From positions 87,358,001 to 87,422,000 of the forward strand of contig OX597821.1 in the NCBI GenBank assembly GCA_951406725.2: a stretch of 64,000 nt of DNA, given 5' to 3'. Origin of the DNA: Octopus vulgaris (lineage: Eukaryota). Position numbers and translations under genes: made by a program. The notes under the pieces were generated by a model. It saw only the letters and a list, made by a program, of their open reading frames with translations, had not been told where the DNA came from and did no database searches. Shown piece after piece: positions 1,341 through 63,976 of the stretch; position 1 is the stretch's first letter, and each line of letters begins with the position of its first letter.

Positions 1341-1753
1341 GTGGCTGTGTGGTAAGTAGCTTGCTTACCAGCCACATGGTTCCGGGTTCAGTCCCACTAT
1401 TTGGCATCTTGGGCAAGTGTCTTCTACTATAGCCTCGGGCCGACCAAAGCCTTGTGGGTGGATTTGGTAGACGGAAACTGAAAGAAGCCCGTCGTATATA
1501 TGTATATATATATATATATATGCGTGTGTGTGTTTGTGTGTCTGTGTTTGTCCTCCTAGCATTGCTTGACAACCGATGCTGGTGTGTTTATGTCCCCGTC
1601 ACTTAGCGGTTCGGCAAAAGAGACCGATAGAATAAGTACTGGGCTTACAAAGAATAAGTCCCAGGGTCGAGTTGCTCGATTAAAGGCGGTGCTCCAGCAT
1701 GGCCACAGTCAGATGACTGAAACAAGTAAAAGAGTAAAAGAGAGTAAAGAGTA
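1341..1753 (+). mobile_element. SINE A (tRNA-derived head, CORE-like cttgggcaagtgtctt, internal TA/TG microsatellite, (gtaaaaga)n tail)
   Basis: Box A-like gtggctgtgtggtaag and box B-like gggttcagtccc; near-identical to about 10 other copies in the window. Confidence 0.92.
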
Positions 1754-2824: not shown

Positions 2825-3262
2825 ATTACTCTTTTCTACTCTAGGTACAAGGCCCGAAATTTTTGTGGGGGAGAAGGCCAGTCAATTAAATCGACCCCAC
2901 TACGCAACTGGTACTTAATTTATCGACTTCGAAAGGATGAAACGCAAAGTCGACCATGGCGGAATTTGAACTCAGAACGTAACGGCAGACGAAATACCGC
3001 TAAGTATCGCCCGGCGTGCTATCGTTTCTTATTTCTTTACTGCCCACAAGGGGCTACACACAGAGGGGACAAACAAGGACAGACAAACGGATTAAGTCGA
3101 TTATATCGACCCCAGTGCGTAACTGGTACTTATTTAATCGACCCTGGAAAGATGAAAGGCAAAGTCGACCTCGGCGGAATTTGAACTCAGAAAGTAGCGG
3201 CTGACGAAATATCGCTAAGTATTTCGCCCGGCATGCTAACGTTTCTGCCAGCTCACCGCCTT
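2825..3262 (-). mobile_element. SINE B dimer (tail-1 unit followed by tail-2 unit)
   Basis: Two bodies; junction gtttc|ttatttc at about 3028. Confidence 0.88.
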
Positions 3263-3718
3263 AATCGATTAATTATATCGGCCCACCAGTACTTAACTGT
3301 TACTTTATTTTATCGAACTTAGGAGGGATGAAACGCAGAGTTGACATCGAGGGGATTTGAACACAGAGCGTAATGAGTCGGAAGAAATACCGTAAGAAAT
3401 TGCCTCCGATGTTCTAACGATTATACATGAGGCCCCGGGCGGAAATTGAAACGGCTTTCATTCTGGTAAACCTGCCAAGAACATAACCTGTTAATTTCTT
3501 AAGTACATTTTCAACCTCATCAACAGGTCTTTGCCCATCGAGCATTTTAGATAGTAGCAATAAAGAAATCATTATTTAATACTAAATACTTAAGATAATT
3601 TTTATCGCAATATTTTTGAAAAAATAAATTTTTGATTTGGTCCTAAAAAAGACCACGGTTCACATTCGTCCACTGCAAAAAGATCCTCTCCAAATAGAAT
3701 AAAGATTTGTCTGAATGC

Positions 3719-4292
3719 TTATTTCTTCACTAGCCACAAGGGGCTAAACACAGAGGGGACAAACAAGGACAGACAAACGGATTAAGTCGATTATGTCGAC
3801 CCCAATGCGTAACTGGTACTTATTTAATCGACCCCGAAAAGATGAAAGGCAAAGTCGACCTCGGCGGAATTTGAACTCGAAATACCTATTTCTTTATTAC
3901 CCACAAGGGGCTAAACACAGAGGGGACAAACAAGGACAGACATAGGTATTAAGTCGATTATATCGACCCCAGTGCGTAACTGGTACTTAATTTATCGACC
4001 CCGAAAGGATGAAAGGCAAAGTCGACCTCGGCGGAATTTGAACTCACAACGTAATGCAGACGAAATACCTATTTCTTTACTACCCACAAAGGGCTAAACA
4101 CAGAGAAGACAAACAAGGACAGACAAACGGATTAAGTCGATTATATCGATCCCAGTGCATAACTGGTACTTAATTTATCGACCCCGAAAGGATGAAAGGC
4201 AAAGTCGACCTCGGCGGAATTTGAACTCAGAACGTAACGGCAGACGAAATACCGCTAAGCATTTCGCCCGGCGTGCTAACGTTTCTGCCAGC
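3719..4292 (-). mobile_element. SINE B trimer (one head, three body+tail-1 units)
   Basis: Junction gaaatacctatttc at 3879-3892 and 4062-4075; 8-bp TSD ctgaatgc at 3711-3718 and 4293-4300. Confidence 0.9.
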
Positions 4293-4809
4293 CTGAATGC
4301 CGTTTGTTGAAACACCCCAATATATAAAGGCTAGCGTCGCATTCTACGCATTGTTATGAAACTTTTTTCTTGCAATAGGCACAATAAGAAAAAGCAGTAA
4401 TTCACGCTATTTACATAATTGTTATGATGCATCGGTGCATCATGAACATAAAAATACTAAGTTTTCAATCCACGAAAGTCTGCCAATGAAATTCATTTTC
4501 TAATACGCACAATAAATGGAATATAGGAAGTCCTTATGACCTTGGTTCTTGTTTAAGACCGAACTTTCAGAGTAAGCTGTTTCTGAACAAAATCTCTTAA
4601 CAAGATTTACTCAACTTTATAGGATAATTAAAACAGTCACGATTACTACTCATCTAAAAATATATCTTGAATTTTAAAAAATCGGTGTAATTACGTATGT
4701 GTTTGTCTTCAAGATTTTCACCCAATACTGAATGTTGAGATATTTAAAAGATACTCTATGATTAATTAAATACATCTCTGAAAAATACAATTGCTGGTTA
4801 AATATTAAT

Positions 4810-4988
4810 TTCAAATTCCGTGGGAGGGAGTCAGCCGGCTACATCAACCCTAGTGTTCAGCTGGCACTTATTTTATTGACCCTGAAGCGATGAAAGGCAG
4901 AGTCATTCTTGGTGGAATTTGAACTCAGAATGTGAAGACGGACGAAATGCCGCTAAGCATTTCGCCCGGTGTACTAACGATTCTGACT
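4810..4988 (-). mobile_element. Older SINE B copy
   Basis: Diverged body and head; flanked by gctggt(t/c)aaatat at 4793 and 4990. Confidence 0.8.
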
Positions 4989-5002
4989 TGCTGGTCAAAT
5001 AT

Positions 5003-5588
5003 TACTATCTTTTATAGGCACAAGGCCTGAAATTTATGGGAGGGAGCCTAGTCGATTACATCGAACCCAGGGTTTCCCTGGTACTTAATTAACCAACCCC
5101 GAAAGAATGAACGGCAAAGTCGACATCGGCGGAAGTTGAACTCAGAACGTAATGTAATGACAGACGGAATATCTATTTCTATTTCTTTACTACCCACAAG
5201 GGGCTAAACATAGAGGAGACAAACAAAGACAGACAAACAGATTAAGTCGATTATATCGACCCCAGTGCGTAACTGGTACTTAATTTATCGACACCGAAAG
5301 GATGAAAGGCAAAGTCGACCTCGGCGGAATTTGAACTCACAACGTAACGTCAGACGAAATACCTATTTCTTTACTACCCACAAGGGGCTAAACACAGAGA
5401 GGACAAACAAGGACAGACAAACGGATTAAGTCGATTATATCGACTCTAGTGCGTAACTGGTACTTATTTAATCGACCCCGAAAGGATGGAAAGCAAAGTC
5501 GACCTCGACCTCAGAACGTAGCGGCAGACGAAATACCGCTAGGCATTTCGCCCAGTGTGCTAACGTTTCTGCCAGTTTGCCGCCTTAA
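5003..5588 (-). mobile_element. SINE B trimer (tail-1, tail-1, tail-2)
   Basis: Junctions at 5166-5179 and 5356-5369; 13-bp TSD gctggtcaaatat at 4990-5002 and 5589-5601. Confidence 0.9.
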
Positions 5589-5771
5589 GCTGGTCAAATA
5601 TCAATAACTATTCTTGTCTTAAAAACAAGAAAGGACTATAAGCGCAAATGGGTTAACTCTAAAACACATTCGAAGTAAATTAAGAAACTGTTAATATACA
5701 TATGACCAAATGTCGTTCGTTAGTAACATAAGTAAAATAAAGTGAATTAATTTGTCATTGAAATATACTGA

Positions 5772-5962
5772 GGTGCAAGAGTGGCTGTGTGGTAAGTAGC
5801 TTGCTTACCAACCACATGGTTCCGGGTTCATTCCCAATGCGTGGCACATTGGTCAAGTGTCTTCTACTATAACCTCGGGCCGACCAAAGCCTTGTGAGTG
5901 GATTTGGTAGACGGAAACTGAAAGAAGCCCGTAGTATATATATATATATATATATATATATC

Positions 5963-5997
<35 letters not shown>

Positions 5998-6206
5998 ATG
6001 TTTGTGGGTCTGTGTTTGTCCCCTCCAACATCACTTGACAACCAATGGTGGTGTGTTTACGTCCCCGTAACTTAGCGGTTCGGCAAAAGAGATCGATAGA
6101 ATAAGTACTAGGCTTCCAAAGAATAAGTCCTGGGGTCGATTTGCTCGACTAAAGGTGGTGCTCCAGCATGACCGCAGTCAAATGACTGAAACAAGTAAAA
6201 GAGTAA
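5772..6206 (+). mobile_element. SINE A
   Basis: Full-length copy. Confidence 0.92.
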
Positions 6207-8514: not shown

Positions 8515-8962
8515 AATGGCATCAAACTTTGGTACGAGACTGTCAATTTTAAGGAAAGGATGTGAGTCGATTACATCGGTTCCAATACGTGAGTAGTATT
8601 TATTTTATCGACCCCGAAAGTATTAAGGGCAAAGTTGGCCTCGGCGGTATTTGAACTGAGAACTGTAAGAAATGCCATTATGCATTTTGTCCGACTCGCT
8701 AACGACTCTACCAGCTCACCGCCTTCACCGCTTTAATAATGGTTTAAAATTTTGGTACATGGACAGCATTCTGTGGGGGAGGGGATCATCAATTATATGC
8801 CTTCACCGACCAGTACGCAACTGGTACTTATTTTATCGCCTCCGAAAGGAAGAAAGGCAAAATTAACCTCGACGGTATTTGGACTCCGAACGTAGATAGC
8901 CGGAAGAAATGCAGCGAAGCATTTTTGTCCGACACACTAATGACTCAACCAGCTTGCCGCTT
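8515..8962 (-). mobile_element. Two adjacent diverged SINE B copies
   Basis: ttttatcgaccccgaaa...ctcggcggtatttgaact-like motif twice. Confidence 0.75.
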
Positions 8963-9866
8963 CACTATAATAATTAGTGGCATCCACTACAGAAACTATG
9001 TATTTCTATAAAATCAGTCAGAGGAAAACTGCCCTTCCTTCCCAGCTAAAAGAAGGGCAATGGAACAATTTTTGCTGTGGACTCGGCCGATAATCGGATT
9101 CGTCCTGCGATTTGAAAATAAATGTTTTTTGCTTTGCCAAATACCACACATTCTGAAGAATAGGGAGTATTGATTAAATTGATTGACATCAGTACTTCGT
9201 TGGTACTTATGTTATCAATCCAGAGACACTGAAAAGCCAATGAATAACTCCAGAGGGATTTGATCCCAGAACTGAGACATACCCAAGTGCTTTAAGGCAT
9301 TTAATGTGTCGATTTACAACTTCTGTCACTAAGCGCCCTTAATAATTGCTTTCTAAGAAAAACAAATCCACGTATGTTTGTGAGTGGTACAAATAAATTG
9401 CAGCCTTTGGTGGATACTTAATTAATTAATTAATCAAGTTTATTGGGAATGAAAAACACAGTTGACCTCAGCTGGATTTGAGCTCCGAACTTGAAAGGAT
9501 ACAATTATATACTGCAAAGTATTTAATCCGTTTCTCAACCGTTTCGGTCACTCTCTGCCCAATTGAATCTTTACAGCAATTATAATTTTACTTTTCATTG
9601 ACATTAAGCCCAGGACCATACACATTTATAATGAAACAGAAAATGTAATTAAATCCTTTTCGTGTCTTTTCTTAATGAATTTAGCGACATATGGATAGAG
9701 AAACTGCTACTAGAAGAAATATCGAAACAGATATGGATACGTAAATAAACGTTTATAAAATTGGTGTGTGTATATATACCAATATACATTCACTACCCCA
9801 ACTCTATCTAATTTAGACTCACGCACTCACATGTAAATTTCTACCTCGTTATATACATTTTATCTT

Positions 9867-24994: not shown

Positions 24995-25270
24995 TACGTA
25001 CGTACGTAGACATACAGCGGGTAAGCAAACGGGGTAGGGGCACGCTGTTCGATATCGCTGCTAAATCTCATTTAGAACCTAATAACTCTACCGTTCGAAA
25101 TACACAAAGGTTGAATCAGACTATAATAGATCTCGAGTCCTTGCTATACTAAAAGACGGGGATGGTCAATGCTGGAAAACTTATCATAATAAGAATTTCT
25201 CGATCGCATAACCTGGGCCAAACCCCACCCCCACCCCCCAAAAAAAAAGAAAAAAAAAAACAAAAACAAA

Positions 25271-25684
25271 GGCGCAGGAGTGGCTGTGTGGTAAGTAGCT
25301 TGCTAACCAACCACATGGTTCCGGGTTCAGTCCCACTGCGTGGCATCTTGAGCAAGTATCTTCTGCTATAGCCTAGGGCCGACCAATGCCTTATGAGTGG
25401 ATTTGGTAGACGGAAACTGAAAGAAGCCTGTCGTATATATGCATATATATATATGCGTGTGTGTGTGTGTTTGTTCCCCTAGCATTGCTTGACAACCGAT
25501 GCTGGTGTGTTTACGTCCCCGTCACTTAGCGGTTCGGCAAAAAGAGACCGATAGAATAAGTACTGGGCTTACAAAAGAATAATAAGTGCCGGGGTCGATT
25601 TGCTCGACTAAAGGCGGTGCTCCAGCAGGGCCGCAGTCAAATGACTGAAACAAGTAAAAGAGTAAAAGAGAAAAGAGAGAAAGT
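25271..25684 (+). mobile_element. SINE A with TSD
   Basis: Full copy; aaaacaaaaacaaa duplicated at 25257-25270 and 25685-25698. Confidence 0.92.
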
Positions 25685-32292: not shown

Positions 32293-32921
32293 CATATATG
32301 TATGTATGTGTCCTGAACAATATTTTCAAAAAAGAACACATCTAAATACACGCACATATACACACACACACGCGTGCGCGCGAAATTAGCTGTTAAATTC
32401 TTTTCTTTCGAAATTATGCCTATATCAAAGTTTGCAAAAGTATGTGTGCGCCTCATTCCGAATTTTGGAGACCTACGTTTACGAAAGTGTCTTTGAAGAT
32501 TATGTTGACAAGCTTAATTTTTAAAGGAATTTCGGATCATTCTTCCCCGCTTTCCATTTGTTTCCGTATAACTCTCTTTAAAAATGCGTATTTTTTAAAA
32601 ATAGATTCTTGCAAATAAACGTTTTCATGAATACAGGTTACGATCATGTTCATAAAGTTATGGAAAAAAAATGTCTAAAGTTAAGCAAATAGGTGGTTAT
32701 TAAGTAGAGAGGCGGATAGAATGTTCTCAAACTTATCTGCTGCATTATTTCGTTTTCTAAATTTTATAATCATAATCTCAACTCGTAAAATCATATTTCT
32801 GCGAACTTTTCAAATGAAATTAATATGCAAAATTTCAAACGCTGTTTAAAGGGATTTATGACAAAATAAATTCGGTAAATACCTTTACCTCAATTACTTT
32901 TAGAAAATATTTATCAACATA

Positions 32922-33328
32922 GGCGCAGGAGTGGCTGTGTGGTAAGTAGCTTGCTAACCAACCACATGGTTCCGGGTTCAGTCCCACTGCGTGGCATCTT
33001 GGGCAAGTGTCTTCTGCTATAGCCCCGGGCCGACCAATGCCTTGTGAGTGGATTTGGTAGACGGAAACTGAAAGAAGCCTGTCGTATATATGTATATATA
33101 TATATGCGTGTGTGTGTTTCTGTGTCTGTGTTTGTCCCCCTAGCGTTGCTTGACAACCGATGCTGGTGTGTTTACGTCCCCGTCACTTAGCGGTTCGGCA
33201 AAAGAGACCGATAGAATAAGTACTGGGCTTACAAAGAATAAGTCCCGGGGTCGATTTGCTCGACTAAAGGCGGTGCTCCAGCATGGCCGCAGTCAAATGA
33301 CTGAAACAAGTAAAAGAGTAAAGAGTAT
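32922..33328 (+). mobile_element. SINE A
   Basis: Full-length copy. Confidence 0.93.
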
Positions 33329-39443: not shown

Positions 39444-39579
39444 AACACACACACACACACACACATATGTATATATCTTATTTCTTAAGTAAATAAACAG
39501 GAAGTGTATGGGTAAGATGCCACTCATATACGGCTTTTACTTTTTCCACTCTCTGATAATTCCGCCACCCACCGAATAT

Positions 39580-39797
39580 ATATTTCTTTATTGCCCACAA
39601 GGGGCTAAACATAGAGGGGACAAACAAGGACAGACAAAGGGATTAAGTCGATTACATCGACCCCAGTGCGAAACTGGTACTTTATTTATCGACCACAAAG
39701 TCGACCTCGGCGGAATTTGTACTCAGAACGTAACGACAGACGAAATACCGCTAAGCATTTCGCCCAGCGCGTTAACGTGTCTGCCAGCTCGCTGCCT
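39580..39797 (-). mobile_element. SINE B (tail-1)
   Basis: Matches the other copies, with a small internal deletion. Confidence 0.88.
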
Positions 39798-40236
39798 AGA
39801 ATATATATCATGATGCAACACGCTATGGGACGTGTAGTCCTATCTCAGAACAATTGGTAAAGTATTTCATAATAAGAGAGCCCCACCACCAAAACAAAAT
39901 CTTTCTCATGATTCATAAATATATTATTGAGTGATCTCAATATTTATAACGAATTGACCATATTTTGTGGGTGTGCAGCATCCAAGTGGCATAGCCAAAA
40001 TATAAGCCGCTACAACCCTGATACTAAAAAATGGCAGCGGAAGTCGACATTGATAATCATTCACTTGACTTAAACTCATCGCTTTTGCCAGTTATCTGGC
40101 TTCGGGTCAAAATTTAACGCTATATCTAGAACGTTGACTGTTAGTTTGTTCAAGACAAAAATCTTAGGTTCTGAGATATTGAAATTTGACATATCCTTTT
40201 CTGAATCTGTTTATCTAATGACTATTTATATTGGGT

Positions 40237-40627
40237 GTGGAGGCACAATGGCCCTGTGGTTAGGGCAGCGGACTCGCGGTCATAGGATCGCGGTTTCGAT
40301 TCCCAGACCGGGCGTTGTGAGTGTTTATTGAGCGAAAACACCTAAAAGCTCCACGAGGCTCCGGCAGGGGATGGTGGTGATCCCTGCTGTACTCTTTCAC
40401 CACAACTTTCTCTCACTCTTACTTCCTGTTTCTGTTGTACCTGTATTTCAAAGGACCGGCCTTGTCAATCTCTGTGTCACGCTGAATATCCCCGAGAACT
40501 ACGTTAAGGGTGCACGTGTCTGTGGAGTGCTCAGCCACTTACACGTTAATTTCACGAGCAGGCTGCTCCGTTGATTCGGATCAACCGGAACCCTCATCGT
40601 CGTTACCAACGGAGTGCTTCCATCCAT
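40237..40627 (+). mobile_element. SINE C (tRNA-Arg-like head, RTE-like 3' end)
   Basis: tggccctgtggttagggcagcggactcgcggtc..ggtttcgattccc; near-identical copy at 63587-63976. Confidence 0.9.
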
Positions 40628-41705: not shown

Positions 41706-41917
41706 TATATTTGTATGATGAAAACGTTCACCCAGTAACCACTTGGTTTCGGGTTCAGTTCCAGTGGAAATCGGGTCGACCAATGATTACTAAGTGAAAT
41801 TTTGTACACATACATAAAATATATTTTGGCTGATTTAACTGATTTTACCAATCTGTTTTTCTATTTACACGAGAGCTTGGAAAAAACATTCTCGGCACCT
41901 ATCTGAGCAGCGGGTTG

Positions 41918-42296
41918 GAAAAGTATGGCATTGGCTCTTTGCCGCTGAATGTTTGAAAAGTATGGCATTGGCTCTTTGCCGCTGAATGTTTGAAAAGTAT
42001 GGCATTGGCTCTTTGCCGCTGAATGTTTGAAACGTATGGCATTGGCTCTTTGCCGCTGAATGTTTGAAAAGTATGGCATTGGCTCTTTGCCGCTGAATGT
42101 TTGAAAAGTATGGCATTGGCTCTTTGCCGCTGAATGTTTGAAAAGTATGGCATTGGCTCTTTGCCGCTGAATGTTTGAAAAGTATGGCATTGGCTCTTTG
42201 CCGCTGAATGTTTGAAAAGTATGGCATTGGCTCTTTGCCGCTGAATGTTTGAAAAGTATGGCATTGGCTCTTTGCCGCTGAATGTTTGAAAAGTAT
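41918..42296. repeat. 37-bp minisatellite, 10 full copies plus 9 bp
   Basis: Unit gaaaagtatggcattggctctttgccgctgaatgttt; only one variant base (4th copy gaaacgta). Confidence 0.97.
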
Positions 42297-52060: not shown

Positions 52061-52769
52061 TATATATATATAAGGGTAAGAACCTGGAGATCCAAGTGGA
52101 GGAAGCTTGTAAGCTTCAAGTTGTCCGTCTCAAGACTTCTATAGAAAACAAGAAGTAGACTGTGTAGGATCAGCAACAGTAATAATTTATTGGTGTCGAT
52201 GGTATACTTCTTCCCATATCGAAGTTACGAGGAAAGTCGATAAGCTGAAGGTTTCTGTATAGCCCACGGTTAGCAACCCGAGTTCCTACGAATGCGAATA
52301 AAAATCCAAATTGAAGGAGTGGAACGAGTAGGACCCGGGCTACATATGTTTCTTGGTTAGCTAATCATCTGATGTAATAATCACTCAATGAGCAGTACTC
52401 AACTTGGTGAATCATCAGGCCGAGAACACTTTAATTACACGAAGGTGACATTGCCGCTTGGAATTTTCAAGTTAACTCACTGCAAATGTGATTTGAAATG
52501 AATAGCGAAGATGGAAGATTAGAATGAAAAACAAATGGTTGAAGAAATAAATGCTCAAGAAGAAAGAAAGGGAAAGATGAGGTTAAATATGTGGGAGTGG
52601 GAGTCGTATAACTTTGACAGGAATGAAGAAAAGGAGAGGGGAAGAAAGAGGGTGGAAAGAGGAGCAGATAGTTGCTGTCGTTGAGGGGAAGAAATGGTTG
52701 CCATAAATATTTAACTGCAATGAGAAGAGAATGGCTGAGATATTAAATTATTAGCAGATAATTGGGGCT

Positions 52770-53005
52770 GGTAGCGAGCTGGCAGAAACGTTAGCACGCC
52801 GGGCGAAATGCTTACCAGTATTTCGTCTGCCGTTACGTTCTGAGTTCAAATTCCGCCGAGGTCGACTTTGCCTTTCATCCTTTCGGGGGTCGATTAAATA
52901 AGTACCAGTTACGCAATGGGGTCGATGTAATCGACTTAATCCGTTTGTCTGTCCTTGTTTGTCCTCACTGTGTTTAGCCCCTTGTGGGTAATAAAGAAAT
53001 AGGTA
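52770..53005 (+). mobile_element. SINE B monomer (tail-1)
   Basis: Full copy ending aaagaaataggta. Confidence 0.92.
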
Positions 53006-53639: not shown

Positions 53640-54098
53640 AACATGACTTGATAATGATTCTTAACATTGGCATATCAACAAGAACGGTAGAGAAGGTGTA
53701 AAGTTGATTGAATATTCAATAACACAGTACAACAATACATAACTGGTGATGATTTAATCAAGCCTAGTTGGATGAAAGACAAGATCGGCTCTAGATGGGT
53801 TTAAAAGCGAGGATATAATGCGATGCAAATCAATACTGCAATGCATTAAGTTCAGTATTCTACAGTTTCTCTCATTCTTCCACCTTATCAAAATTATCAT
53901 AATGGTTATAGTATTGTACTGAACCTTCCTTAAACTTGAGCGAGACAAACAGACAAACCAGCAGCGTTGGAATTCTGTTGTTCTGTGGGCGGGTGTTAAT
54001 GGTTCTCAAATGTACAGTTACCCGTCATCCTAAATGGAAATATATTTACTAAGAAAGAGAATGCACGTTCCTTTTGACTGCAGTGTGGAGGTGAAAAA

Positions 54099-54494
54099 TC
54101 TTTATATATAAAACTGTAGTTGTGTGAGTGTCTGTCTCCTACGATTTAGATTCCTAACTACTCCCACATTTTGCGGTGCAGTTTAACCAAAACCAGGTAT
54201 CTCATAGTCGTGATTCATATCGAGCCCTTCTGGGTATAAGTGCGCGTCAACGATGAGTCTACGATTTAAAAAAAAAATTACTATCAATTTTTCCCATTTT
54301 TAATGCATTTTTGGCATATATAAGGGAAGTAACTCTCTAAAAATGTATTAAATCTCAGAACATAAAAAGCTACAGTAACACCCCCCCCCTTTGTGGTTAG
54401 CTATATTGAGATGGCTATTATACTTTACATTTCTAAAAATGCTTATATAGTTATTTCCCTTACAAACCCGAGCAACGCCGGGCGATACTGCTAG
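54099..54494 (+). mobile_element. Non-autonomous Helitron
   Basis: A|TC start; cccgagcaacgccggg hairpin; CTAG|T end; sister copy at 61172-61575. Confidence 0.9.
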
Positions 54495-54867
54495 TATTTA
54501 CTATGAAAGAGAATGCACATTCCTTTTGACTGCAGTGTGAAGGTGAAAAATTACAAATAAATCACTCCATTGGTATAGTTGTTCTAGTTTTGAGATTTAA
54601 TGTAATACTCCATGAGGGAAGCTCATGTAGCAACAGACAAAAGTTAAGTAAACAGACGCAGGACTTCAATTATCGATGCTTGTTTTGGATAAGGGAAGCG
54701 CTGCTGATTAGGACTATTAGATTAACTCTGTTGGCTCTCGCTATCTAATCTACACCTTCAAGAGCTGATTCCATCTAAGCGTCACGCCCCCACTAAGACA
54801 TATATCCAAAGAAAATAGTATGTACAGTCTCTAATTATATTTGAGATAGTAAAGAATCATAGACATA

Positions 54868-55281
54868 GGCGCAGGAGTGGCTGTGTGGTAAGTAGCTTGT
54901 TTACCAACCACATGGTTCCGGGTTCAGTCCCACTGCATGGCACCTTGGGCAAGTGTCTTCTACTATATCCTCGGGCCTACCAAAACCTTGTGAGTGGATT
55001 TGGTAGACGGAAACTGAAAAGAAGCCCGTCGTATATATGTATATATATATATATGCGTGTGTGTGTTTGTGTGTCTGTTTGTCCCCCTAGCATTGCTTGA
55101 CAACCGATGCTGGTGTGTTTATGTCCCCGTTACTTAGCGGTTCGGCAAAAGAGACCGATCGAATAATTACTGGGCTTACAAAAGAATAAGTCCCGGGGTC
55201 GAGTTGCTCGATTAAAGGCGGTGCTCCAGCATGGTTACAGTCAAATGACTGAAACAAGTAAAAGAGTAAAAGAGTAAAGAG
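54868..55281 (+). mobile_element. SINE A
   Basis: Full-length copy. Confidence 0.93.
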
Positions 55282-55282
55282 T

Positions 55283-58305: not shown

Positions 58306-60976
58306 CTACGTGATGTACTGGTATGATTGAGTGAATTTTACTTCATACATCTCGATTTTGACTAAAGAAGATAACCGCTTAGTATGATTGCTAACAAACA
58401 GATCAAACAGCATTGATCAGGTGTCGATCAATGCGTAATGTAGTTCCACACACCTGTGTATAATAGTGACGTTATACCAAGCTTCTTTGCCATTACATTT
58501 AAACATCTGAATAATGTGTATATTGTTGCAAATTTATCATTTGGAAGAATAAGATAACAAAATAACGTGAGACTCAGTATATTTACCAATAAGTATTTCT
58601 CTGTAGTTTACTCATCATTATTTTAGTTTACCTTGTCTTTAATGTTCTCTGCTTATGACTGAAAATGCAAAATACTGGCCAGAACGGTATTGAAAAGATA
58701 AAGAATTATCAATGATATTCTGTCATTAAATCTATATAGAAATCCATAAATATTCATTCAGATCTATAGTGAAGCAATATTTTTGCCAACGCACAAAGCA
58801 TTACAGCATTTCAAAGTTGGCTAATATATATTACAAAAGTAAATATAGTTTCGTTAATAATAAATGATTTCTTAAATTTATACTGCTTATAATTTTATAA
58901 TTTCTGTCGGTGAGATTGATGTAACTTTATGGTAAATGTTTAGTAGAAAATTTAATCTGAGGTACTGCGTTGAACCAAGTGTTCTACCATCTTGATTCAG
59001 TCATTTTGGTAACTTAAGACGAGAACATTTATATTTAATTTTTAAGATTATTTTTCAATAACTACAGCAACATTTTAGAAGTACAGGTACGATCTCACAC
59101 AAATATATAAAGTTGAGGATAATGCCAGTGTTTTAGCTGAACAATGAAAAGCGTCTAGAACTGTCTGCGCGCGCATGCATACGTAAACACACAGACACAG
59201 ACACACACACACTTCTAAAAATAATAATATATATTTCTTTACTACCCACAAGGGGCTAAACACAGAGGGGACAAACAAGGACAGACAAACGGATTAAGTC
59301 GATTATATCGACCCCAGTGCGTAACTGGTACTTAATTTATCGACTCCGAAAGGATGAAATGCAAAGTTGACCTCGGCGGAATTTGAACTCAGAACGTAGC
59401 GGCAGACGAAATACGGCTACGCATTTCGCCCGGTGTGCTAACGCTTCTGCCAGCTCGCCGCCTTAAAATACCCATTTCTTTACTACCCACAAGGGGCTAC
59501 ACACAGAGAGGACAAACAAGGACAGACAAATGAATTAAGTCGATTATCAGTGCGTAACTGATACTTAATTTATCGACCCCGAAAGGATGGAAGGCAAATT
59601 CGACCTCGGCGGAATTTGAACTCAGAACGTAGCGGCAGACGAAATACTGCGAAGCATTTCGCCCGGCGTGCTAACGTTTCTGCCAGCTCGCCGCCTTACT
59701 TCTAAAAATAATAATATAAACGTTTAAATAGACCATGTGCTTGCTTCCAATGATAAAAGCTTAAGCATTTCTTATTAAATGTAAAGAATATTGTTGGGAT
59801 TTGCCACTACATGAAAGTATATTAACCAAGAAATTTCCTTTTCACATGAAACAATAACCGGCTTTTCTTTTTCTGCGTTACATACGATTTACAAGGATTT
59901 TAAATAGATTTTAGTTATTGATCTTCACAACCACGTGAAGATCTTGGGAGAAATGCTGATGGATATCAGTTTTTGGGTCTACTGTTCTATTTATAAAAGT
60001 CTTAACTTTTGAGCCTCATGTAACTGTCTACAAGTACTTAAAAAACCCACCCAACAAAGTTAATTGAAAACGAAACAGAATGTATCAAAACAATAGACAC
60101 TAAAAAATTACGAAAGACAAAAAAGCAATCTAATTACATCCATTTCTCTTCTTTACATCACAACACACAACCCCAAAATCACACAAACATACAACATTCA
60201 TTTCTACTCTAGGCACAAGTCCCGAAATTTTTCGGGAAGGGCCAGTCGATTAGATCGACCACAGTACGCATTTTGTACTTAATTTATCGACCCCGAAAGG
60301 ATGAAAAGTAAAGTCGACCTCGGCGGAATTTCAACTCAGAACGTAAAGACAGAGGAAATAGAACTAAGCATTTTGCACGGCTGCTAACGATTCTGCCAGC
60401 TCACCGCTTTATCTCAAACATACAACATTATCCATCAAAATAATCGTTATTGAAACATGAAGTAAGTATGGTAAAAGTACTCGAAATACACAAAACAATC
60501 AAGAGTAAAAGGCAGGTAAAAAATGACTTACCAGCACGAAATTACTCACCAAAAACAAAACACCGATAATCACCTTAATTGTGGGACCTGCATCAACCAT
60601 AATAGAAAATATATTTTATAAATCTTAATCGTGGAGTATTTTCATGGTAAAACAAGAATCATTTCATCTGCCCGTCAAAAATTTAATCTCTGATTTTGTT
60701 TCAAATTTTGGCATAAGGCCAATACATTCGTAGGGGAAGTGCGCAATTGGTACTTATTTTATCGACTCCGAAAGGATGAAAGGCAAATTCGGCCTCGGTA
60801 GAATATAAACTCAGAACGAAAAGACGAGCAAAATGCCGCTAAGCATTTTGATCGGCGCACTGACGAGTCTATTAATTTGCTGCCTTAATTTAATTAATGG
60901 TATTAAATGCAATCACTGAAACGAATATTACATAAAATAAACGAAACTTACCTTGAGTAAATAACTCAATATTCAT
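58306..60976 (-). CDS. Hypothetical small spliced ORF (~85 aa) of unknown function
   Basis: Six phase-compatible GT-AG exons: 60976-60952, 60587-60532, 59136-59099, 58658-58632, 58506-58454, 58361-58306; no recognised homology. Confidence 0.2.
59232..59697 (-). mobile_element. Two full SINE B (tail-1) copies in tandem
   Basis: 21-bp TSD acttctaaaaataataatata at 59211-59231 and 59698-59718. Confidence 0.9.
60201..60408 (-). mobile_element. SINE B (tail-2)
   Basis: Matches B; caaacatacaacatt is duplicated on both sides. Confidence 0.88.
60700..60886 (-). mobile_element. Diverged SINE B
   Basis: ttttatcgactccgaaaggatgaaaggcaaa core. Confidence 0.75.
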
Positions 60977-61171
60977 TGGCAACAAATACGAGATTTTGAT
61001 ACCACATAGATTCCGTTAAACGAGCATTTAAGCTTATGTGCAACAAACAAATCACCAAGGTAGCGAAAGGAGAGAGCTCGGAGATGGGAGAGTATCTGTT
61101 AGAGGCCGAATACCAGCCAGTCGAGTGGACCTTCTGTGGATGCAGTCCAGGATGTCTTTCTGCATTCCAGA

Positions 61172-61575
61172 CTAGCAGTATCGCTCAGCGTTGCTCGGGT
61201 TTGTAAGGGAAATAACTATTTAAGTATTTTTAGAGATGTAAAGTATAATAGCCATCTCAATATGGCTAACCACAAAGGGGGGGGGGGTGTTACTGTAGCT
61301 TTTTACGTTCTGAGATTTAATAATAAATTTTTAGAGAGTTACTTCCCTTATATATATATGCCAAAAATGCATTAAAAATGGGAAAAGTTGATGGTAATTT
61401 TTTTTTTAAATCGTAGACTCATCGTAGACGCGCGCTAATACCCAGAAGGGCTCGAAATCAATCACGACTATAAGATACCCGGTTTTGGTTAAACTGCAGC
61501 GCAAAATGTGGGAGTAGTTAGGAATCTAAATCGTAGGAGACAGACAGCACACAACCTCTCTTTTATATATAAAGA
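61172..61575 (-). mobile_element. Non-autonomous Helitron
   Basis: Reverse complement of 54099-54494 with TC...CTAG ends at an A|T site. Confidence 0.9.
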
Positions 61576-61891
61576 TATGTCAATAAAGCCTTGCAGAGTG
61601 TCGAAAGCTATTGGGGGGTTGACATGACTAATCTTAGAGATGCGGTTCGAGCTATGTTTAGAATGTGCTTTTGCCAGGAGAGGTTATTGGTGATAATAGA
61701 GAGGGATCAGAGAGAGAGAGAGATGGAGAGAGAAAGAGGGAGAGAGAAAGAGAGAACATCAAATGTGGACGTACAGAGACACATATATAGCTAGCATAAT
61801 GTGTGTATATATATGTACATACATGACTGTGTGTGTATGTGTCTATGTATGTGCTTGTATATAAATGTATCGCTCTCTCTCTATCTGTCTA

Positions 61892-63586: not shown

Positions 63587-63976
63587 ATGGATGGAAGCAC
63601 TCCGTCGGTTACGACGACGAGGGTTCCGGTTGATCCGAATCAACGGAACAGCCTGCTCGTGAAATTAACGTGTAAGTGGCTGAGCACTCCACAGACACGT
63701 GTACCCTTAACGTAGTTCGCGGGGATATTCAGCGTGACACAGAGAGTGACAAGGCCGGCCCTTTGAAATACAGGTACAACAGAAACAGGAAGAAAGAGTG
63801 AGAGAAAGTTGTGGTGAAAGAGTACAGCAGGGATCACCACCATCCCCTGCCGGAGCCTCGTGGAGCTTTAGGTGTTTTTGCTCAATAAACACTCACAACG
63901 CCCGGTCTGGGAATCGAAACCGCGATCCTACGACCGTGAGTCCGCTGCCCTAACCACTGGACCATTGCGCCTCCAC
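63587..63976 (-). mobile_element. SINE C
   Basis: Near-identical to 40237-40627; TSD-like ttatc(a/g)atat. Confidence 0.9.

What the first reader, a model, noticed from the sequence alone, without database searches (positions are those of the whole stretch)
3711..5601. SINE B moves as concatemers with a fixed hairpin junction: multimeric master or circular-RNA-like amplification
Seen: two independent loci (3719-4292 and 5003-5588) each have one tRNA-like head followed by headless body+tail units, under a single TSD. The junctions fall at the same position and read (sense) GAAATA-GG-TATTTC, a perfect hairpin in which the tail's GAAATA replaces the head's GAAATG in the stem cgaaatgc..gtatttcg. 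The second unit at both loci shares a diagnostic variant next to box B (plus strand ctcacaac at about 4043 and 5336, versus ctcagaac in head-bearing units). Other copies end partway into the junction (aaagaaataggta at 53005; gaaatgggtattt at about 59470). Inference: the source is a head-to-tail multimer, possibly made by reverse transcription of an RNA whose 3' end folds onto the head stem, as in retrozymes but with no obvious ribozyme. An alternative is that new copies target older copies at this site. I do not know whether this has been described.
Basis: partly seen in the sequence, partly recalled or inferred. Interest (0 to 1): 0.8.

Follow-up and report, generated by a model that had tools for sequence, protein, structure and literature searches.

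The report
Self-targeting SINE builds headless tandem chains
This animal jumping element often sits in chains of one promoter-bearing head followed by headless copies joined at one fixed point, most likely because new copies insert into that spot in older copies and the join is predicted to heal without a scar, not because they are copied from a circular RNA.

Summary
The structures are real. Two loci carry one tRNA-like head plus two headless units under one TSD. The tail-to-arm junction occurs 4 times in the window (0 in 100 shuffles). It is also common in public data: about 44% of tail depth in contigs of another organism label runs through it.

Headless units within a locus differ in haplotype or even tail family, which rules out rolling-circle copying and a single multimeric master here. 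The junction hairpin is worth 0.0 kcal/mol alone, no ribozyme was found, and the 'diagnostic' base is one of 8 such two-copy variants.

The junction lies exactly where the 3' arm of a conserved 13-bp head hairpin begins. One chain ends in an old, about 20% decayed copy, target sites are re-used, and public contigs show stub-head plus full-head scars. Best reading (0.55): repeated target-primed insertion into this site of older copies, with the duplicated arm hidden by homology-guided 5' joining, plus read-through re-mobilisation. RNA-level template jumping is the main rival (0.25). Single-TSD SINE multimers are known in a clam and in squamates, so this is a new variant of a known kind.

The parts
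4293..4300 (-). Locus 1 TSD, 5' copy (8 bp)
3711..3718 (-). Locus 1 TSD, 3' copy (identical)
4070..4292 (-). Locus 1 unit 1: tRNA-like head (box A-like ~4280-4290, box B-like 4216-4228; boxes named from recalled consensus), body, 66-nt long tail 4070-4135
   Evidence: ARAGORN finds no tRNA
4241..4270 (-). 13-bp head hairpin: 5' arm 4258-4270, 4-nt loop 4254-4257, 3' arm 4241-4253. The junction point is the loop/3'-arm boundary
   Evidence: linked changes at 4253 and 4258
3887..4069 (-). Locus 1 unit 2, headless; begins with the 13-nt arm 4057-4069 (identical to 4241-4253); shared variant at 4047
3719..3886 (-). Locus 1 unit 3, headless; 9 nt of arm (3878-3886) joined directly to box B (17 nt missing); different haplotype from unit 2
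5589..5601 (-). Locus 2 target copy 1 (13 bp)
5364..5588 (-). Locus 2 unit 1: full head, box B partly deleted, long tail
5180..5363 (-). Locus 2 unit 2, headless, long tail; shared variant at 5340
5003..5179 (-). Extra 6-nt tail repeat (5174-5179), decayed arm (5161-5173) and headless short-tail unit 3, 28/136 sites from other short-tail copies
4990..5002 (-). Locus 2 target copy 2 (identical to copy 1)
4806..4989 (-). Older same-orientation SINE of the family directly behind locus 2
4793..4805 (-). Target copy 3 (one mismatch): the same site was used twice
2835..3264 (-). Third composite: long-tail unit joined at 3029/3030 to a short-tail unit starting near head position 17 (off-site junction); itself directly behind an old family copy
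59211..59718 (-). Two full-head long-tail units under one 21-bp TSD; spacer 59466-59473 is the start of the arm
52768..53005 (+). Long-tail monomer ending with 4 nt of the arm; no TSD found
39573..39808 (-). Long-tail monomer with 10-bp TSD overlapping the tail end

Best explanation
These chains of one head plus headless units most likely arise because new copies of this tRNA-headed SINE are inserted, presumably by a partner LINE's target-primed reverse transcription, into older copies at one preferred site, the first base of the 3' arm of the head hairpin, and the 5' join is predicted to be seamless.

Steps:
(1) Shown: the junction is fixed at that base and recurs between different subfamilies.
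(2) Inferred: the cut duplicates about 13 bp, the arm. Because the cut upstream strand matches the new cDNA over the whole head, it anneals there and only one head remains, so the old TSD still flanks everything. A minority of events keep a stub head plus a full head.
(3) Shown: there is no T4+ run in long-tail units at 5 of 6 loci. Inferred: Pol III can read through, so finished chains can also move as units.
(4) Inferred: transcripts that stop at the weak TATTT signal in the arm give copies ending partway into the junction and carry terminal homology to the same site, which reinforces it.

How many junctions are independent insertions and how many are re-amplified composites is not resolved.
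For: - The 3'-most unit of locus 2 is an old copy of another tail family: 28/136 from its peers, against 5/160 for the unit in front of it. Its arm is decayed and preceded by a repeated tail end, so it is an independent joining to an old target at the same site.
- Units within a locus carry different haplotypes at 5 informative sites.
- Target re-use is seen directly: three copies of one 13-bp target around locus 2 and its neighbour. A similar, weaker case lies at 8731-8974.
- All 4 clean TSDs of long-tail loci, and the junction site, have ATT within their first few bases. 13 of 20 GGTATTT words in the window lie in family copies that cover 4,697 bp.
- One search lists, among 15 of 560 joints shown, a full head preceded by a stub ending at 4241 (8 contigs in X4, 1 in X12), and a 4287-to-4239 join: the scar that a nested insertion with a 13-15 bp duplication leaves.
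- X23 reads show a tandem unit 4057-4135, the 13-bp arm plus a 5'-truncated tail (48 and 14 loose-end reads), as expected for insert-plus-TSD amplification.
- All 4 units that begin at the arm follow a tail; none of 25 family hits begins there from unique flank.
- Precedent: with R2 protein, cDNA sharing sequence with the upstream target gave mostly seamless 'anneal' 5' junctions and a minority with the shared part duplicated (PMC11371274, passages).
- TATTT terminated 42% of B2 transcripts in cells (PMC8466645, passages).
Against: - The fraction is high for simple targeting: 3 exact and 1 near junction of 10 long tails in the window, and 0.45 (X4) and 0.37 (X12) of tail depth. Non-SINE targets do not begin with GGTATTT. 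So extra homology-driven targeting or composite amplification must be assumed.
- The 13 nt 4241-4253 are also exactly the 3' arm of the RNA hairpin, so an RNA-structure mechanism predicts the same coordinates. The 4241 boundary of the scar joint may partly reflect where short-tail subfamilies stop aligning.
- The second units of both loci share one base, and TSDs of long-tail loci have 0 mismatches in 52 bp; both fit movement as a unit.
- No partner LINE was identified.
- No genome was available for a count.
Confidence: 0.55

Rival explanations
1. RNA-level joining. Reverse transcriptase copies one SINE RNA up to the loop, either because the RNA was cut in this anticodon-like loop or because the cDNA end anneals to a second RNA ending in the arm's first bases. 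It then jumps to (or the RNA is ligated to) the 3' end of another SINE RNA, and the chain is inserted in one event.
For: The junction sits exactly at the loop boundary of a conserved stem: 139 of 143 cells keep the pair in 11 copies, and linked changes at 4253 and 4258 occur in 17%/16% of X4 depth. The tail end is complementary to the arm. 3 tails run partway into the arm and then go elsewhere, and a full-head dimer lies under one 21-bp TSD. Tail-to-full-head joints occur in 12 X4 contigs. Subfamily sites are mosaic: 8 of 10 site pairs show all four gametes. R2 proteins jump templates in vitro (PMC11371274, passages).
Against: The first-copied (3'-most) unit of locus 2 is a ~20% decayed copy with a decayed arm. 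There are no headless monomers among 25 hits. Stub-plus-full-head scars and re-used targets need DNA-level insertion. The tail/arm pairing is weak.
Confidence: 0.25
2. One or a few founder junctions arose once by chance nesting. Ordinary amplification of read-through composites, plus unequal recombination or conversion between units, spread them, and the fixed position reflects common descent.
For: Shared base in both second units. No strong terminators inside long-tail units. Single TSDs. Tandem arrays derived from the junction exist (X23). Unequal recombination is the explanation offered for SINE arrays in a clam and in squamates (PMC11481361 passages; PMC10702118 part 4).
Against: Same-position units are no closer across loci than other pairs. 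The join to an old short-tail copy has its own junction signature. The shared base is 1 of 8 such variants and is not among the 40 of 150 variant rows shown.
Confidence: 0.14
3. Retrozyme-like amplification: a ~185-nt circular RNA, closed at the junction, is reverse-transcribed round and round.
For: Unit size and head-to-tail order fit. A fixed junction is what a circle would give. An RNA-labelled (guessed) run holds the junction.
Against: Headless units within a locus are not copies of one template. Every chain in the window has a head that a circle would lack. No ribozyme family at E up to 5 and no CTGANGA core. The circular fold is less stable than the linear one (-34.3 vs -39.2 kcal/mol). 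The junction stands in DNA runs, so RNA contigs prove nothing.
Confidence: 0.04
4. Assembly artefact or recent local tandem duplication.
For: No read spans a whole chain (one search used 150-nt reads and contigs).
Against: Units within a locus differ at 8-15 non-CpG sites. TSDs are clean. The junction is present in runs of more than one study and organism label.
Confidence: 0.02

Closest known systems
TSD1-(SINE)n-TSD1 multimers of the blood clam Scapharca broughtonii (PMC11481361, passages)
   Same: One TSD, a first unit with a complete tRNA head, later units truncated at the same head position; molluscan tRNA-SINEs.
   Different: There the first and middle units have truncated tails and arrays reach 4-15 units; about 3% of SINEs are tandem. 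Here every unit keeps a complete tail, units come from different subfamilies, and about 40% of long tails carry the junction.
SINE-derived satellites (sSat) of squamates (PMC10702118, parts 1, 3, 4 of 5)
   Same: Tandem units shorter than the SINE with a longer terminal unit reaching a SINE end. The 79-bp arm-plus-tail array in X23 reads looks like such a nucleus.
   Different: sSats are DNA-level, homogenised, subtelomeric arrays of four or more units. The chains here are 2-3 heterogeneous units, dispersed and TSD-flanked.
Head-to-tail multimers of rodent Dip and B2 SINEs (PMC8466645, passages)
   Same: Very high multimer share (49% Dip, 40% B2). The authors leave open nested integration versus dimeric templates.
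   Different: Those are full-length units joined at tails. Here the join is at an internal head site and removes the head.
R2 'anneal' 5' junctions and template jumping (PMC11371274, passages)
   Same: Provides the mechanism proposed: seamless 5' joining by cDNA-target homology, minority duplicated joins, tandem insertions.
   Different: R2 is an autonomous site-specific LINE tested in cells. Here the target is the SINE's own head and the enzyme is unidentified.
Metazoan non-LTR retrozymes (PMC7229834, passages)
   Same: Short head-to-tail repeats of 150-450 bp, dimers to multimers.
   Different: Defined by type I hammerhead ribozymes and circular RNA. No ribozyme here, and a Pol III-type head is present.

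Membership tests
tRNA-derived SINE | 5' tRNA-related head with A and B boxes | tested here: inconclusive
   Box-like motifs read by eye against recalled consensus; ARAGORN and Rfam call no tRNA.
tRNA-derived SINE | Short, non-coding, dispersed, high copy | tested here: met
   25 hits in 64 kb on both strands; 564,883 contigs laid in X4.
tRNA-derived SINE | Variable-length TSDs | tested here: met
   8, 10, 13, 15, 21 bp; none found for several other copies.
tRNA-derived SINE | Pol III transcription and a partner LINE sharing the 3' tail | not testable with these tools
   No RT domain in 11 of 61 ORFs scanned; no genome.
MetaSINE superfamily | 66-bp Meta domain behind the head | tested here: not met
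   Bivalve Meta consensus sequences in the supplement of PMC4824008 do not resemble the body; compared by eye only.
CORE / Deu / Nin / Ceph superfamilies | Conserved central domain | tested here: inconclusive
   Motif searches in supplements and full text found nothing. A Deu/Nin-like identity is recalled only; octopus SINEs are reported as mainly tRNA-Core and tRNA-Deu (PMC8967140, passages).
Non-LTR retrozyme | Type I hammerhead ribozyme in each repeat | tested here: not met
Non-LTR retrozyme | Repeats copied from one circular template | tested here: not met
   Headless units within a locus differ.
Non-LTR retrozyme | Abundant circular RNA | not testable with these tools
   Only contigs of a guessed-RNA run were available.
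SINE-derived satellite (sSat) | At least four homogeneous middle monomers | tested here: not met
   2-3 heterogeneous units in the window; array length in X23 unknown.
Single-TSD SINE multimer, TSD1-(SINE)n-TSD1 | One TSD, one complete head, fixed head truncation in later units | tested here: met
Single-TSD SINE multimer, TSD1-(SINE)n-TSD1 | Truncated tails in all but the last unit (as described in the clam) | tested here: not met
   Tails complete in all units.

The most novel reading that the evidence does not exclude
This is a self-homing SINE: a hairpin-marked site in its own head captures on the order of 40% of new insertions, and homology-guided 5' joining hides each event, so the element grows inside its own old copies and seeds minisatellites. 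I found no SINE described with a fixed internal self-target in ten literature searches.
Probability: 0.3. Interest if true: 0.7.

Novelty: new variant of a known kind. Interest (0 to 1): 0.45.

Why it matters
Authors who met SINE multimers could not tell nested integration from multimeric templates (PMC8466645). This family has a base-exact junction at high frequency, old and young subfamilies, and visible scars, so that question becomes testable in any good assembly of the species. If self-targeting dominates, it is a harm-avoiding strategy for a very abundant SINE. It would also mean that TSD-based copy counts and dating miss insertions, and it would offer a route from SINEs to tandem repeats. 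If read-through composites dominate, it is a tidy but ordinary case of SINE multimer evolution.

Tried and rejected
- No whole genome is held, so the genome-wide table could not be made.
- Pattern scans for the tail or body found 0 loci in viral contigs, metagenome contigs (20, 22) and genome contigs (23).
- Rfam over 3600-6000 gave only below-threshold matches on the TA microsatellite. ARAGORN found no tRNA.
- Pfam on 11 of 61 ORFs gave two below-cutoff matches and no LINE domain.
- Earlier-findings look-ups returned nothing.
- My first guess that the body is the Meta domain was dropped. Motif look-ups for other domains were empty; one supplement file of PMC4758252 was not searched, and figures holding consensus sequences are not held. 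The 2015 octopus genome paper is not held.
- Raw-read runs X22 and X23 laid only 14 and 221 of 12.9 million reads each, so they were not used for frequencies (X23: 27 of 73 reads at 4068 and 64 of 117 at 4077 lack the array variants).
- The distances for unit 3719-3886 are inflated by a mis-aligned arm, and the distance for unit 1 of locus 2 by its box B deletion; I used for the former.
- TSD identity was considered as a test of in-place growth versus movement as a unit, but it does not discriminate: old short-tail copies also have nearly intact TSDs.
- The opposite-strand joints at 4232-4237/4292 (37 contigs) fit head-to-head nesting or twin priming and were not counted for either side.

Full report
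What is there. The window is AT-rich, microsatellite-laden animal DNA; an octopus-like origin is my recollection-based impression, not a tool result. A BLAST with unit 4062-4292 finds 25 family hits. Alignment of 22 units shows a shared head and body with two tail types: 10 young long-tail units (2-6% from their majority) and older short-tail copies. Locus 1 is head + long + long + long under an 8-bp TSD. Locus 2 is head + long + long + short-tail under a 13-bp TSD. The junction pattern occurs 4 times and never in 100 shuffles. Two further composites join elsewhere: at about head position 17 (3029/3030), and to a full head under one 21-bp TSD (59211-59718). A second, ~410-bp SINE family in the window (13 head hits) shows no such chains among its head hits.

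The junction. The head holds a 13-bp stem with a 4-nt loop (-19.5 kcal/mol, z = -3.62). It is kept in 139 of 143 cells over 11 copies. In public contigs two changes that swap the loop-closing pair occur at matching levels (0.175 and 0.161 in X4; 0.232 and 0.215 in X12). Headless units start at the first base of the 3' arm. The 'junction hairpin' itself is weak: 0.0 kcal/mol alone, and significant in 1 of 3 contexts.

How common. laid four runs on 4030-4329. In X4 (contigs, organism label B) depth just past the junction is 0.45 of tail-interior depth, and in X12 (RNA is only a guess) 0.37. 736 X4 contigs leave the head at 4253 and continue with a tail consensus (agreement 0.65). In the window 3 of 10 long tails have the exact junction to a headless unit and 1 a near one. 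Caveats: contig depth is not copy number, long arrays could inflate it, counting was capped, and only 15 of 560 joints, 18 of 794 loose ends and 40 of 150 variant rows were shown. The raw-read runs held too little of this DNA for frequencies.

Against circle and master. Headless units in one locus differ: units 2 and 3 of locus 1 have different haplotypes and unit 3 lacks 17 nt, and units 2 and 3 of locus 2 belong to different tail families. First units of the two loci differ at 11 of 150 non-CpG sites. The two second units differ at 7 of 158, tied with two other pairs. Their shared base is 1 of 8 two-copy non-CpG variants over 45 pairs, and the corresponding change at 4230 is not among the 40 variant rows shown. 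No ribozyme was found, whereas type I hammerheads define metazoan retrozymes (PMC7229834, passages).

For insertion into older copies. (a) The last unit of locus 2 is 28/136 from its peers, against 5/160 for the unit before it. It has a decayed arm preceded by a doubled tail end, so it looks like an old genomic target joined independently at the same site. (b) The 13-bp target of locus 2 is present three times, around the chain and around the older neighbour, so the same site was used twice. (c) Clean TSDs and the junction share ATT near their start. (d) One search shows full heads preceded by a stub ending at 4241 (8 X4 contigs, 1 X12) and at 4239: the scar of a nested insertion with a 13-15 bp duplication. 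(e) X23 reads show a tandem unit of arm plus truncated tail (4057-4135). (f) No unit starts at the arm from unique flank (0 of 25 hits). If the cut upstream strand anneals to the new cDNA, which matches it over the whole head, the expected product is one head, a repeated arm and the old TSD. R2 protein gave mostly such seamless joins and a minority of duplicated joins when template and target shared sequence (PMC11371274, passages). Long-tail units lack T4 runs except one in unit 3 of locus 1, so read-through composites could also move whole. TATTT, present in the arm, stopped 42% of B2 transcripts (PMC8466645, passages), which would explain tails ending partway into the arm.

What remains open. 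The 13 nt that look like a duplicated target are also exactly the 3' arm of the RNA stem, so a loop-cut or jump mechanism predicts the same coordinates. The full-head dimer, the partial arms and the mosaic haplotypes (8 of 10 site pairs with four gametes) fit RNA-level switching. Scars are much rarer than junctions, and ordinary target preference alone cannot give 40%. I therefore give recurrent self-targeting 0.55, RNA-level joining 0.25, founder-plus-amplification 0.14, circle 0.04 and artefact 0.02. The first three can co-occur.

What is known. Single-TSD multimers with one complete head and a fixed head truncation are described in the blood clam, though with truncated tails (PMC11481361, passages). 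SINE-derived satellites with a longer end unit are described in squamates (PMC10702118, parts 1, 3, 4). Nearly half of Dip copies are multimers (PMC8466645, passages). The body is not the Meta domain (PMC4824008, parts 1-2 of 6 and supplement part 1 of 4), and its superfamily stayed unidentified (PMC5804259, PMC4758252, PMC3272025, PMC8967140: passages and term searches; PMC2881922: passages on the TPRT model). Ten searches found no report of a SINE with a fixed internal self-target. Subscription papers, Repbase and figure-only consensus sequences were not visible and may describe it.

Verdict. The feature is real and abundant and the headline interpretation is not supported. It is a new variant of a known kind, interest 0.45.

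Noticed in passing
run X23 laid on window 4057-4135 and 4064-4123: Two minisatellite-like tandem units built from the long tail plus a short arm-like piece (79 bp and about 70 bp). The second carries a non-SINE 16-bp spacer that starts like the junction site.
   Followed up: partly
window 4793-5601 and 8530-8974: Same-orientation family copies inserted side by side at a re-used target; three near-identical target copies although the older SINE bodies are about 20% decayed.
   Followed up: partly
window 4253 and 4258; copy at 59398-59437: A subfamily with a two-sided change that turns the loop-closing U-G pair into G-C, in about 16-23% of depth: a sign that the head stem is selected.
   Followed up: partly
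joints 4232-4237 / 4292, opposite strands: 37 X4 contigs join a full head to the opposite strand of another copy near the stem base: head-to-head nesting hot spot or twin priming.
   Followed up: no
window 1341-1752, 1954-2366, 5771-6206, 25265-25677, 32916-33328, 54859-55282: A second, ~410-bp tRNA-type SINE family with an internal TA/GT microsatellite; the copy at 1954-2366 interrupts a copy of the family studied here.
   Followed up: no
window 40237-40627 / 63587-63976 and 54092-54495 / 61171-61582: Two further pairs of ~400-bp dispersed repeats (96% and 92% alike) in inverted orientation; not classified.
   Followed up: no
window 41914-42296: Minisatellite of 37 bp, 10.4 copies, 99% alike.
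   Followed up: no
long-tail units, informative sites: Subfamily-diagnostic sites are shuffled among copies (8 of 10 site pairs show four gametes), suggesting many source genes with frequent recombination or template switching.
   Followed up: partly
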